Origin: Promethearchaeota archaeon
GTDB lineage: Archaea; Asgardarchaeota; Lokiarchaeia; Sigyniarchaeales; SOKP01
Reading direction: 5' to 3'
Assembly: GCA_030606485.1 (NCBI GenBank)
Contig: JAUWGH010000002.1
Location: forward strand, 180,001 to 212,000
DNA length: 32,000 nucleotides
A model generated the notes under the pieces. The model ran no database searches, was not told where the DNA came from, and saw nothing but the letters and a program-made list of their open reading frames with translations. The position numbers and the translations under genes were made by a program. This document shows, piece after piece, positions 28,112-29,554 of this stretch (its first letter is position 1; each line of letters begins with the position of its first letter).

Positions 28112-29554
28112 TTGGCTAATAGTCAGAATTCAAATGAATCCAATAATAACGTGAAGAATATAGAAGAATCTTCACTTATTAAAGCTATTGTTGTATCCAT
28201 TTTTGATGCGGAAGGGCCAACACCTAAATATTATTATCCTAAGGATTTGGATGAAAATTCACGCCTATTAATAGCAATGAAAACCATAAGTTTGCTTATG
28301 GGAGAGGCAACATATCAAGATGGCAATGCAATAGAAGGTGTTAATTATTTTGGCATTTTACCTTTCCCAGATATTAAATTAAATGGATTAACCTATTTTT
28401 TTCTTATATTTGATCCTGAAGCAAGAGGTCAAGCAAAAGCGGCTACAATTACTATTTTAGTTGACGAGGAAAACAAATCATTTTTCTATGATAATATTAA
28501 ATATTTACGAGTTATTATTGACAAATCTGCTTCTCAAATACAAAATGCTAAGGACTCAAATGAAATGAAAAATATTTTAGATTCTCTACGTATGCAATTA
28601 TTAAATTTTATTAAAGATTTAAAGCACCCCTTTTCCCAAACTCGACAGATAAAAATTTTATTTGCGGGATTGGATAGGTCCGGCAAAAGTTCATTCGTTC
28701 TTGGAATAGAGAAAAAATATTCTGAAATAATAAAAGTCTTACCAACTAAAGGTGTATCAAGGGAAATAAGTGAGTTATTTGGTGCTCAACTGATCCGATG
28801 GGAACTTGGTGGTCAGAAAAGCTACCGAGATCAATATCTTAAGGAAAGTGAAGTTTATTTATATAACGTTGATTTATTATTTTTCTTGATTGATGTTCAA
28901 GATTTAAAGAGAAGGGAGGAAGGATTAAAATATTTTAAAAGATTAATTGAATCTCTTGAAAACATTGATGATTACCCTCCGATTGTTTTATGTTTTCATA
29001 AAACAGACCCAGATATAAAAAATGACAAACGAATTCGCGAAAACATTGAATTCATAATTATGAGCATTCAAGAATTTACTCAAAATTATTACATTAAGAT
29101 ATTTGAGACATCAATATTTGATCACTGGTCATTGGTCTCTGCCTTTTCCTACGGTATTAGCCGATTATCTCCAAATAGAGAGATTTTTAGAAAACAATTG
29201 GAATGGTTTGCTAATAAAACTGATTCTGAAGCTATTTTACTCTTAGATGAAAAAGCAATAATTTTATCTAACTTTTCAAGAGATGATGTCTCAGGAAAAG
29301 TTTTCGAGATTTCCGCCCCTCATTTTCAGACATTATATAAGACATTTAAGGAATTTAAGATTTTGAAAAAAGATTTTCTTGTGTCTTCTGGAATTTCTCA
29401 AACTAAAAAGATATTATTTAAGAAACTAAATATTGAGAAATTTAATTTATATCTCCTTCTATTCATTAATAGCGAAGATTTTATTGAGAGAATTGATGAA
29501 TATTTGGATGAATTTATTTCACGGATTAAAATGCTGATACAAACATACATTTAG
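28112..29554 (+). CDS. Longin(uDENN-like)-Rag-type GTPase-roadblock fusion, paralog A (arginine-finger motif intact)
   Basis: TTG start. IVVSIFDAEGPTP, YFGILPFPD, FDPEARG. G1 GLDRSGKSS, G2 PTKG, G3 WELGGQ, G4 HKTD, G5 TSIFD. Roadblock-like tail LSPN..LLLDEKAIIL. Confidence 0.88.
   Translation: MANSQNSNESNNNVKNIEESSLIKAIVVSIFDAEGPTPKYYYPKDLDENSRLLIAMKTISLLMGEATYQDGNAIEGVNYFGILPFPDIKLNGLTYFFLIFDPEARGQAKAATITILVDEENKSFFYDNIKYLRVIIDKSASQIQNAKDSNEMKNILDSLRMQLLNFIKDLKHPFSQTRQIKILFAGLDRSGKSSFVLGIEKKYSEIIKVLPTKGVSREISELFGAQLIRWELGGQKSYRDQYLKESEVYLYNVDLLFFLIDVQDLKRREEGLKYFKRLIESLENIDDYPPIVLCFHKTDPDIKNDKRIRENIEFIIMSIQEFTQNYYIKIFETSIFDHWSLVSAFSYGISRLSPNREIFRKQLEWFANKTDSEAILLLDEKAIILSNFSRDDVSGKVFEISAPHFQTLYKTFKEFKILKKDFLVSSGISQTKKILFKKLNIEKFNLYLLLFINSEDFIERIDEYLDEFISRIKMLIQTYI

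What the first reader, a model, noticed from the sequence alone, without database searches (positions are those of the whole stretch)
28112..29554. Rag-type GTPase fused to a longin domain carrying a folliculin/SMCR8-like arginine finger (candidate built-in GAP)
Seen: the N-terminal domain has IVVSIFDAEGPTP and FFLIFDPEARGQAKAATITILVD (Arg105, codon 28424-28426), fused to a GTPase with HKTD and TSIFD motifs and a roadblock-like tail. Established, quoted from memory: folliculin ([23 protein letters not shown], Arg164) and SMCR8 (LYDLEARGFVR, Arg147) use this longin-loop Arg as the GAP finger, and folliculin acts on RagC/D, whose HKxD and TSIYDHS motifs this GTPase resembles. Inference: one archaeal polypeptide joins a Rag-like GTPase with its folliculin-like GAP, a possible ancestral form of the mTORC1-upstream Rag/GAP module. 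Asgard longin-GTPase fusions are known in general; I do not know of this finger being described in them.
Basis: partly seen in the sequence, partly recalled or inferred. Interest (0 to 1): 0.88.

Follow-up and report, generated by a model that had tools for sequence, protein, structure and literature searches.

The report
Rag-like GTPase with folliculin-type longin
This Lokiarchaeia-type Asgard gene joins a Rag-like GTPase to the kind of longin domain, with its conserved arginine, that eukaryotes use on separate proteins (folliculin, GATOR1, SMCR8) to switch such GTPases off. It is a testable built-in off-switch, but the architecture and the arginine motif have each been published already.

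Summary
ORF 28112-29554 (+, TTG start, 480 aa) has three domains: a longin domain (about 20-171), a Rag/Gtr-type G domain (179-352) and a Rag-type roadblock tail (356-480). The longin model is confident (pLDDT 90). After an archaeal longin, its nearest solved folds are C9orf72, Lst4, FLCN, NPRL2, SMCR8 and FNIP2 (Z 11-14). Ordinary longins and roadblocks score Z 9 or less. Arg105 (ARG) is present in 79 of 79 species-level orthologs and the GP motif in 78 of 78.

- GAP activity, and cis versus trans action, remain untested. The docking job gave weak support and no contacts.
- The domain cannot be assigned to folliculin rather than NPRL2, SMCR8 or C9orf72.
- The G domain is closer to RagA/Gtr1 than to RagC.
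- The gene is confined to one Lokiarchaeia-type order, so an "ancestral form" is not shown.

The arginine finger and GP motif in Asgard longins were published in 2025 (PMC12290439). The longin-GTPase-roadblock layout was published in 2021 and 2024. This scan has already reported the same family on other DNA.

New details: an arginine-less paralog and a LokiRagO ortholog lie in a conserved neighbourhood, and two lineages keep the arginine although their own G-domain switch motifs have decayed, which hints at trans action.

The parts
28112..29554 (+). Whole gene, 480 aa, TTG start: longin + Rag-like G domain + roadblock tail
   Evidence: A 99%-identical 480-aa database protein has the same start.
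28169..28624 (+). Longin domain, residues about 20-171, topology beta-beta-alpha-beta-beta-beta-alpha-alpha
   Evidence: AF2 model m336718bb4f84, pLDDT 90, pTM 0.86. VIA-align Z 11-14 to C9orf72, Lst4, FLCN, NPRL2, SMCR8 and FNIP2. Foldseek and atlas agree.
28214..28219 (+). GP motif (Gly35-Pro36) in the beta1-beta2 hairpin
   Evidence: Invariant in 26 of 26 and 78 of 78 orthologs, and at least 90% conserved in the 105-sequence class alignment. Aligned to the SMCR8 'VGPQP' stretch by a profile search, at a non-significant E of 0.72.
28424..28426 (+). Arg105 codon, candidate arginine finger, in the loop between the 4th and 5th strands
   Evidence: Invariant in 26 of 26 and 79 of 79 orthologs. 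Arg in 102 of 132 class representatives. Lies inside the Pfam Folliculin match 93-151.
28646..29167 (+). Rag/Gtr-type G domain, residues 179-352
   Evidence: Pfam Gtr1_RagA E 2e-24. PDB 8yl2 (LokiRagO) E 9e-39; RagA and Gtr1 about E 1e-8. Foldseek.
28667..28690 (+). G1 P-loop, GLDRSGKS (186-193)
28799..28816 (+). G3 / switch II, WELGGQ (230-235). Gln235 is kept. The usual Asp is Glu in this small clade.
28997..29008 (+). G4, HKTD (296-299). Most orthologs read NKFD.
29108..29122 (+). G5, TSIFD (333-337)
29177..29551 (+). Roadblock-type C-terminal domain, residues 356-480 (the Rag dimerisation domain by analogy)
   Evidence: Foldseek alignments of 300-320 columns cover the G domain and C-terminal domain of Rag, Gtr and LokiRag chains. 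Secondary structure.
19482..20993 (-). 503-aa paralog with the same three domains. It keeps GP but has no Arg at the finger position. Candidate non-catalytic partner.
   Evidence: No Arg at the finger column in any aligned copy. Within 10 kb in 27 of 42 loci that reach that far.
24432..25376 (+). 314-aa Rag-like GTPase without a longin, ortholog of the solved LokiRagO (8yl2). Candidate client or partner.
   Evidence: (E 1e-82). Upstream neighbour in 52 of 53 loci.
25554..26495 (+). Zinc-ribbon + roadblock/LC7 protein, a conserved neighbour
   Evidence: Robl_LC7 23.5 bits, Zn ribbon. Present in 56 of 57 loci.

Best explanation
The gene encodes a Rag-family GTPase that carries a GAP-type longin domain on the same chain, where eukaryotes use a separate GAP subunit.

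Shown:
- A longin fold of the FLCN/NPRL2/SMCR8/C9orf72 class.
- The two signature motifs published for that class: GP in the first hairpin and an Arg in the neighbouring hairpin.
- A complete Rag-type G domain with a catalytic Gln.
- A Rag-type roadblock tail.

Inferred:
- The protein dimerises through the roadblock tail, as Rags do. The partner may be itself or the arginine-less paralog encoded about 7 kb away.
- The longin domain inserts Arg105 beside the gamma-phosphate of a Rag-type G domain and speeds GTP hydrolysis.
- I think the target is more likely a partner G domain (the other protomer, the 503-aa paralog or the neighbouring LokiRagO-like GTPase) than the protein's own G domain in cis.

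The biological output is unknown. These archaea have no TOR kinase according to the literature read.
For: Fold:
- The longin model has pLDDT 90.
- VIA-align gives C9orf72 Z 14.1, Lst4 13.0, 6nzd_H (FLCN, judged by its residue range) 12.8, NPRL2 11.8, SMCR8 11.3, FNIP2 11.1 and DENND1A 10.8. SNARE, TRAPP, AP and roadblock folds score 9.2 or less.
- Foldseek ranks GATOR1 complex chains first among eukaryotic hits, at E 1e-5.
- The atlas search finds C9orf72 and FLCN/SMCR8-uDENN clusters.

Sequence:
- All 26 orthologs hit Pfam Folliculin over the stretch that holds the Arg, best E 5e-6.
- The GP stretch aligns to the SMCR8 GP motif, though not significantly.

Conservation:
- ARG in 79 of 79 and GP in 78 of 78 orthologs.
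- Arg in 102 of 132 class representatives, including 35 of 38 that are fused to Ras-like GTPases.
- So an Arg-bearing longin of this class is repeatedly fused to a small GTPase.

Rag identity.

Trans hint: two lineages, each seen in two independent sequences, have lost the switch I Thr and the switch II DxxGQ but keep GP and [AV]RG.

Context: the LokiRagO ortholog is a neighbour in 52 of 53 loci and the arginine-less paralog in 27 of 42.

Literature: the same two motifs are reported as the hallmark of eukaryotic longin GAPs and of Asgard FLCN/SMCR8-type longins (PMC12290439). FLCN Arg164 catalysis is described in PMC9473554.

Weak docking result:
- Longin against G domain + tail + GTP scored 0.50, with the best of 3 controls at 0.00.
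- That mark was reached by 58 of 80 solved complexes and 2 of 110 mismatched pairs. At 0.60 or under it was reached by only 7 of those 80 and by both mismatches that passed.
- The runs agree in at least 77% of contacts, and the partner's pLDDT is at least 82.
- No interface was reported. The pass may reflect memory of solved longin-GAP/Rag complexes, and the two chains are halves of one protein.
Against: - No hydrolysis data exist for any Asgard longin.
- I could not superpose coordinates, so the equivalence of Arg105 with FLCN R164, NPRL2 R78 or SMCR8 R147 is not measured. It rests on loop position, the sub-threshold Pfam match and the published description.
- Profiles of the domain find no FLCN or NPRL2 chain in the PDB, and SMCR8 only at E 0.72.
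- This protein's own Pfam Folliculin score is below the curated cutoff.
- The full-length model is poor (pLDDT 66.6, pTM 0.49), so the domain arrangement is unknown.
- Related DENN-type longins are GEF platforms, and DENND1 is among the fold matches.
- 13 of 30 Rag-fused representatives of the class lack the Arg, so the architecture does not need it.
- The window's clade has Glu for Asp in DxxG. This may alter nucleotide handling.
Confidence: 0.5

Rival explanations
1. The longin domain is a non-catalytic platform or lock. It holds the G domain in one nucleotide state, acts as an exchange factor, or binds an effector or membrane, as longin and roadblock dimers do in TRAPP, Mon1-Ccz1, DENN, Ragulator and the inactive lysosomal folliculin complex. 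Arg105 would then be structural or would bind a ligand other than the gamma-phosphate.
For: DENND1 (a Rab GEF) is among the fold matches at Z 10.8 and Foldseek E 4e-4. Thirteen of 30 Rag-fused representatives of the class lack the Arg yet keep the architecture. The only solved archaeal relative, 8yqg, has no Arg at this position in the printed alignment. Longin and roadblock dimers act mainly as GEFs (PMC10933270). In the inactive folliculin complex the finger is not at the nucleotide; FLCN must reorient by 90 degrees to position it (PMC9473554).
Against: ARG and GP are strictly invariant across 79 species. The same pair of motifs is reported as specific to GAP longins and absent from GEF-type longins (PMC12290439). 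The Arg is kept in lineages whose own G domain has decayed.
Confidence: 0.27
2. The longin domain is a true GAP, but for a different class of small GTPase (Arf-related or Ras/Rab-like). The Rag part would then serve only to place or gate it, as a GTPase cascade.
For: The same Arg+GP longin is fused more often to Ras-like G domains (35 of 38 with Arg) than to Rag-like ones. The eukaryotic relative SMCR8-C9orf72 acts on Arf (PMC12290439). C9orf72 is the top eukaryotic fold match. The Arg is kept where the own G domain has decayed.
Against: Repeated fusion to a GTPase usually marks the partner. The conserved neighbours are Rag-type, not Arf- or Ras-type. The docking job against its own G domain and tail gave weak support.
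Confidence: 0.15
3. The resemblance of the ARG loop to the folliculin finger is coincidental. The residue is conserved only because the whole domain is highly conserved.
For: The orthologs are about 60% identical and 48 of 157 longin columns are invariant, so invariance inside the ortholog group is weak evidence on its own. No significant sequence match to FLCN, NPRL2 or SMCR8 chains was found.
Against: The class alignment has only 23% mean column identity, yet GP is at least 90% conserved and Arg is kept in 102 of 132 representatives. The fold matches favour the GAP longins. The published motif description fits.
Confidence: 0.08

Closest known systems
[quoted passage not shown] Prometheoarchaeum syntrophicum MK-D1; Tran et al. 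2024, PMC10933270). [quoted passage not shown]
   Same: The same three-domain architecture and the same phylum. The window's protein is an ortholog or paralog of this catalogued class.
   Different: In the text I could read, those papers do not classify the longin as GAP-type and do not mention the Arg or GP motifs.
[quoted passage not shown]
   Same: The same two motifs in the same hairpins of a longin fold, and the same proposal of possible GAP activity.
   Different: That paper treats them as longin proteins whose GTPase partner is an open question (Arf-related or Rag). Here the longin is covalently joined to a Rag-type GTPase. The paper's sequence list was not available to me.
Eukaryotic longin-domain GAP complexes: FLCN-FNIP (RagC/D), GATOR1 NPRL2-NPRL3 (RagA/B) and SMCR8-C9orf72 (Arf)
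   Same: The longin fold (Z 11-14), the GP motif, an Arg in the neighbouring loop, and a Rag-type GTPase as the likely client. An Arg-bearing copy and an Arg-less paralog exist, echoing the catalytic and non-catalytic longin pairs.
   Different: There is no C-terminal DENN or NPRL2-type domain. GAP and GTPase are on one chain. Sequence similarity is sub-threshold. Activity is untested. No TOR pathway is present according to the literature.
LokiRagO (PDB 8yl2, homotetrameric RagA-like GTPase with GTP) and LokiRagM (8zla, 9m28)
   Same: The closest solved relatives of the G domain and tail: E 9e-39 and 1.5e-27 by sequence, Foldseek E 2e-20. The LokiRagO ortholog is a conserved neighbour.
   Different: Neither chain matches the window protein's longin domain. 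No paper on these entries was found in the library.
Longin domain of a Lokiarchaeota Roadblock-Longin protein (PDB 8yqg, a dimer)
   Same: The best structural match to the longin domain (Z 18.1, rmsd 2.3 over 140 residues; profile E 5e-21). It carries the GP motif.
   Different: It has no Arg at the finger position in the printed alignment ('ENLKEPEKT'). It is joined to a roadblock domain, not to a GTPase.

Membership tests
Rag/Gtr family GTPases | Ras-like G domain that scores above the curated cutoff of Pfam Gtr1_RagA, with G1-G5 motifs | tested here: met
   86.7 bits against a cutoff of 22. GLDRSGKS, T212, WELGGQ, HKTD and TSIFD are present. RagA and Gtr1 are the best eukaryotic PDB hits.
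Rag/Gtr family GTPases | C-terminal roadblock domain following the G domain | tested here: met
   Foldseek alignments of 300-320 columns to whole Rag, Gtr and LokiRag chains, with TM normalised by target about 0.65. The full-length model is only moderate (pLDDT 66.6).
Rag/Gtr family GTPases | Obligate dimer through the roadblock domains | not tested
The solved relative LokiRagO is a homotetramer according to its PDB title.
Longin-domain GAPs (FLCN / NPRL2 / SMCR8 class) | Longin fold closest to the FLCN/NPRL2/SMCR8/C9orf72/FNIP longins | tested here: met
   Model pLDDT 90. Z 11-14 to these proteins against 9.2 or less for other longins and roadblocks. Foldseek and atlas agree.
Longin-domain GAPs (FLCN / NPRL2 / SMCR8 class) | GP motif at the start of the second strand | tested here: met
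   G35-P36 lie in the beta1-beta2 hairpin. Present in 78 of 78 orthologs. Aligned to the SMCR8 GP stretch at a non-significant E. The motif is defined in PMC12290439.
Longin-domain GAPs (FLCN / NPRL2 / SMCR8 class) | Catalytic arginine structurally equivalent to FLCN R164, NPRL2 R78 or SMCR8 R147 | tested here: inconclusive
   An invariant Arg sits in the hairpin next to the GP hairpin and inside the Pfam Folliculin match.
Longin-domain GAPs (FLCN / NPRL2 / SMCR8 class) | C-terminal DENN (FLCN, SMCR8) or NPRL2-specific domain after the longin | tested here: not met
   The longin is followed directly by a Rag-type G domain and a roadblock tail.
Longin-domain GAPs (FLCN / NPRL2 / SMCR8 class) | Second, non-catalytic longin subunit (FNIP, NPRL3 or C9orf72) | tested here: inconclusive
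   A candidate exists: the 503-aa paralog with GP but no Arg, within 10 kb in 27 of 42 loci. Binding was not tested.
Longin-domain GAPs (FLCN / NPRL2 / SMCR8 class) | Stimulates GTP hydrolysis in an Arg-dependent way | not testable with these tools
   This needs biochemistry. The docking job gave weak support only (0.50, best control 0.00) and reported no interface.
Pfam PF11704 Folliculin | Whole-protein score at or above the gathering cutoff (23.3 bits) | tested here: not met
   19.5 bits for the full protein and 20.9 for the domain alone. All 26 orthologs match at E <= 1, best 5.4e-6. The match is partial, covering profile positions 49-105 of 166.

The most novel reading that the evidence does not exclude
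The Arg-bearing 480-aa protein and the Arg-less 503-aa paralog encoded about 7 kb away form a heterodimer. That pair would combine, in two chains, the Rag heterodimer (through the roadblock tails) and a catalytic plus non-catalytic longin GAP pair (FLCN/FNIP-like or NPRL2/NPRL3-like). Arg105 would act in trans on the partner's G domain or on the neighbouring LokiRagO-like GTPase. This would be a compact archaeal counterpart of the eukaryotic Rag + longin-GAP assembly, in which the partner relationship is fixed by gene fusion.
Probability: 0.2. Interest if true: 0.8.

Novelty: new member of a known kind. Interest (0 to 1): 0.42.

Why it matters
Eukaryotic nutrient signalling depends on longin-domain GAPs (GATOR1, folliculin) that switch Rag GTPases. 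A 2025 paper found the catalytic motifs of these GAPs in Asgard longins and asked which archaeal GTPases they act on.

Here, and in at least 79 related species, such a longin is fused to a Rag-type GTPase. This is 'Rosetta-stone' evidence for the pairing. It also offers a small, soluble, single-gene system in which a longin-type arginine finger could be tested without rebuilding multi-subunit eukaryotic complexes.

If the arginine proves catalytic, the Rag-GAP relationship would predate eukaryotes. If it does not, the motifs are not sufficient markers of GAP function.

The value is limited because the parts are already published and the gene is restricted to one Lokiarchaeia-type order.

Tried and rejected
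1. Profile searches of the longin domain against PDB sequences used three profiles: orthologs, the whole class, and the Arg-bearing core. None gave a significant hit to FLCN, NPRL2, FNIP or C9orf72. SMCR8 appeared only at E 0.72. Homology to the eukaryotic GAP longins therefore rests on fold and motifs, not on significant sequence scores.

2. In the 1.84-billion-protein representative search I suspected that the 500-680-aa hits were eukaryotic folliculins. Pfam showed that they are Rag-fused proteins of the same architecture. I identified no eukaryotic folliculin among the hits, but I scanned only 20 of the 150 with Pfam.

3. The full-length AF2 model is of moderate quality (pLDDT 66.6, pTM 0.49), and coordinates cannot be read out. 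I could therefore measure neither an Arg105-nucleotide distance nor a residue-level superposition on FLCN, NPRL2 or SMCR8.

4. The complex job was set up as longin against G domain + tail + GTP + Mg. It returned only 'weak support' and printed no contacts, so it cannot tell cis from trans or place Arg105.

5. Searches for papers on PDB entries 8YL2, 8ZLA and 9M28 or on 'LokiRagO' and 'LokiRagM' found nothing relevant.

6. The supplementary sequence list of PMC12290439 is not held. I could not check whether its 15 Asgard longins include fused proteins.

7. In alignment A5 I left out Arg-less sequences on purpose, so its 'invariant R' is by construction. I do not use it as evidence.

8. I rejected the specific folliculin-RagC reading and the 'ancestral form' reading.
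Full report
THE GENE. ORF 28112-29554 on the + strand is open from a TTG start and encodes 480 residues. No Met occurs before residue 56, which lies after the first two strands of the N-terminal domain. A 99%-identical 480-aa protein and 80%-identical 480-aa proteins are on record with the same start, so the start is credible. Arg105 is codon 28424-28426.

DOMAINS.
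- Pfam gives Gtr1_RagA over residues 181-389 (E 2e-24, 86.7 bits against a cutoff of 22) and Arf (E 4e-15). It also gives a sub-threshold Folliculin match over residues 93-151, which contains Arg105 (19.5 bits against 23.3).
- By sequence, the best solved relatives of residues 142-472 are two Lokiarchaeota Rag-like GTPases, 8yl2 (E 9e-39) and 8zla/9m28 (E 1.5e-27). RagA and Gtr1 follow at about E 1e-8.
- A full-length AF2 model is only moderate (pLDDT 66.6, pTM 0.49). Even so, Foldseek aligns 300-320 columns of it to whole RagA, RagC, Gtr1, Gtr2 and LokiRag chains, covering the G domain and the roadblock tail.
- The G domain has G1 GLDRSGKS, T212, G3 WELGGQ, G4 HKTD and G5 TSIFD.

THE LONGIN DOMAIN.
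- Residues 20-176 were folded with a 105-sequence alignment of the wider class. The model is confident (pLDDT 90, pTM 0.86) and has the longin order of elements, beta-beta-alpha-beta-beta-beta-alpha-alpha.
- An exhaustive structural comparison ranks an archaeal longin first (8yqg, Z 18.1).
- The next matches are C9orf72 (7o2w_A, Z 14.1), Lst4 (13.0), 6nzd chain H (12.8), 8fw5 chain B (residues 6-144, 11.8), SMCR8 (6lt0_B, 11.3), 6ulg chain N (11.1), DENND1A (10.8) and a SEA-complex chain (10.5). I take 6nzd_H to be FLCN from its residues 2-268, 8fw5_B to be NPRL2, and 6ulg_N to be FNIP2 from its residues 43-395.
- SNARE, TRAPP, AP-sigma and roadblock folds follow at Z 9.2 or less.
- Foldseek and the ESM-atlas search give the same picture.
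- The domain therefore belongs to the uDENN/GAP-type longin class. It cannot be assigned to folliculin specifically.

THE TWO MOTIFS.
- G35-P36 lie in the first hairpin. Arg105 lies in the hairpin between the fourth and fifth strands.
- In the standard longin sheet order these two hairpins are neighbours at the same edge. This is my inference from the established fold topology.
- PMC12290439 describes this same arrangement for FLCN, NPRL2 and SMCR8, and for Asgard 'FLCN/SMCR8-type' longins.
- A profile of the domain aligns the GP stretch to human SMCR8 residues 58-97 ('ILISEFSEQVGPQPLLTIPND'), but at a non-significant E of 0.72.
- All 26 orthologs tested hit Pfam Folliculin over the stretch that holds the Arg, best E 5.4e-6.
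- I could not superpose coordinates, so the equivalence of Arg105 with FLCN R164 remains inferred. The role of R164 is described in PMC9473554.

CONSERVATION AND DISTRIBUTION.
- The protein has hundreds of full-length relatives of 467-489 aa at 56-80% identity, labelled Promethearchaeota, Lokiarchaeota, Thorarchaeota or Hodarchaeota MAGs.
- In 79 species-level genomes the motif reads [DE]xxARG in 79 of 79, and GP is present in 78 of 78.
- A phylum-wide sample at E <= 1e-20 found the ortholog, mostly in single copy, in 62 of 68 genomes of the window's family and in 6 of 7 of the sister family. It was found in none of 26 other families sampled. It is an order-level gene, not a pan-Asgard one.
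- A profile search of 1.84 billion representatives found only 153 relatives of the longin domain at E <= 1e-3.
- Sorted by what follows the longin, Arg occupies the finger column in 17 of 30 Rag-fused representatives, 35 of 38 Ras-like-fused ones, and 50 of 64 stand-alone or other ones.
- This Arg+GP longin is thus repeatedly fused to small GTPases of two families.
- The window's genome has three copies of the class: this gene, the 503-aa paralog at 19482-20993 (no Arg), and a 352-aa longin-Ras fusion on another contig that reads YPGG at the site.

CLUES TO MECHANISM.
- Two divergent lineages, each seen in two independent sequences, have lost the switch I Thr and the switch II DxxGQ. They keep GP and [AV]RG. 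This argues that the Arg is selected for something other than hydrolysis in its own G domain, which points to action in trans or a non-catalytic role.
- The neighbourhood is strongly conserved. The order is the Arg-less paralog (-), an AIR-synthase-like gene, a SLOG-domain gene, a LokiRagO ortholog (E 1e-82 to 8yl2), a zinc-ribbon/roadblock protein, a NERD-like gene, an ATP-cone/NrdD gene, this gene, and a transglutaminase-like gene.
- Among loci long enough to tell, the counts are NERD 67 of 67, roadblock 56 of 57, LokiRagO-like 52 of 53, and paralog 27 of 42.
- The block mixes strands and unrelated housekeeping genes, and all these genomes are kin. It therefore shows linkage, not an operon.
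- A complex prediction of the longin against G domain + tail with GTP and Mg gave weak support. The score was 0.50 with the best of 3 controls at 0.00. That mark was reached by 58 of 80 solved complexes and 2 of 110 mismatched pairs. At 0.60 or under it was reached by only 7 of the 80 and by both mismatches that passed. The runs agree in at least 77% of contacts and the partner's pLDDT is at least 82.
- That job printed no interface. The pass may be memory of solved longin-GAP/Rag complexes, and the two chains are halves of one protein.

WHAT IS KNOWN.
- Longin-Rag fusions in Asgard archaea were noted by Liu et al. (bioRxiv 10.1101/2020.10.19.343400).
- The layout with the G domain between a longin and a roadblock domain was catalogued and modelled for MK-D1 by Tran et al. 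(PMC10933270).
[quoted passage not shown] That paper left the partner GTPase as an open question (PMC12290439).
- In the texts I could read, the motifs were not tied to the fused Rag-like proteins. That link is the only new element.
- This scan has already reported the same family on other DNA with the same conclusion.

VERDICT.
The domain identities and the conserved arginine hold. GAP activity and cis action are untested. The folliculin-RagC specificity and the 'ancestral form' are not supported.
- I rate this a new member of a known kind, of moderate interest, with a clean experimental test available.

Noticed in passing
window 28799-28816 and 28997-29008: The window's small clade (the four closest homologs) reads WELGGQ and HKxD, where the rest of the family reads WDLGGQ and NKFD. 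It also lacks a 3-residue stretch before switch II. Glu in place of the DxxG Asp is unusual and may change Mg or nucleotide handling.
   Followed up: partly
window 24432-25376 (+): The 314-aa Rag-like GTPase is the ortholog of the solved homotetrameric LokiRagO (PDB 8yl2, E 1e-82). It is a conserved upstream neighbour in 52 of 53 related loci.
   Followed up: partly
window 27479-27916 (+): Only a 145-aa ATP-cone ORF lies here. In three relatives at 58-60% identity a 598-612-aa anaerobic ribonucleotide reductase (PF13597 NRDD) occupies this slot. In other loci the ATP-cone match lies on the opposite strand. The slot seems to have been remodelled several times.
   Followed up: partly
window 19482-20993 (-): The 503-aa paralog keeps GP but has no Arg at the finger position. 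Its G4 reads SKVD instead of NKxD.
   Followed up: partly
L006 492-1550 (-) = own genome contig C10: The third longin of this class in the genome is fused to a Ras-family G domain (352 aa). It reads YPGG where most such fusions read RGG.
   Followed up: partly
proteins P0132/P0272 and P0133/P0273: These are pseudo-GTPase versions of the family. The switch I Thr and switch II DxxGQ are lost, while the longin GP and [AV]RG are kept.
   Followed up: yes
protein P0159 (518 aa): An Arg+GP longin of the same class is fused to a TrmB-type helix-turn-helix domain. This suggests a link from this longin class to transcription.
   Followed up: no
L028 (DATKTW010000091.1): This contig carries the full Asgard gene block but is labelled 'Candidatus Nanopelagicaceae bacterium' in its record. 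It is probably a mis-binned contig.
   Followed up: no
window 25554-26495 (+): An N-terminal zinc ribbon, a long low-complexity linker and a C-terminal roadblock/LC7 domain. It is conserved next to the LokiRagO-like gene in 56 of 57 loci and is a possible Ragulator-like partner.
   Followed up: no
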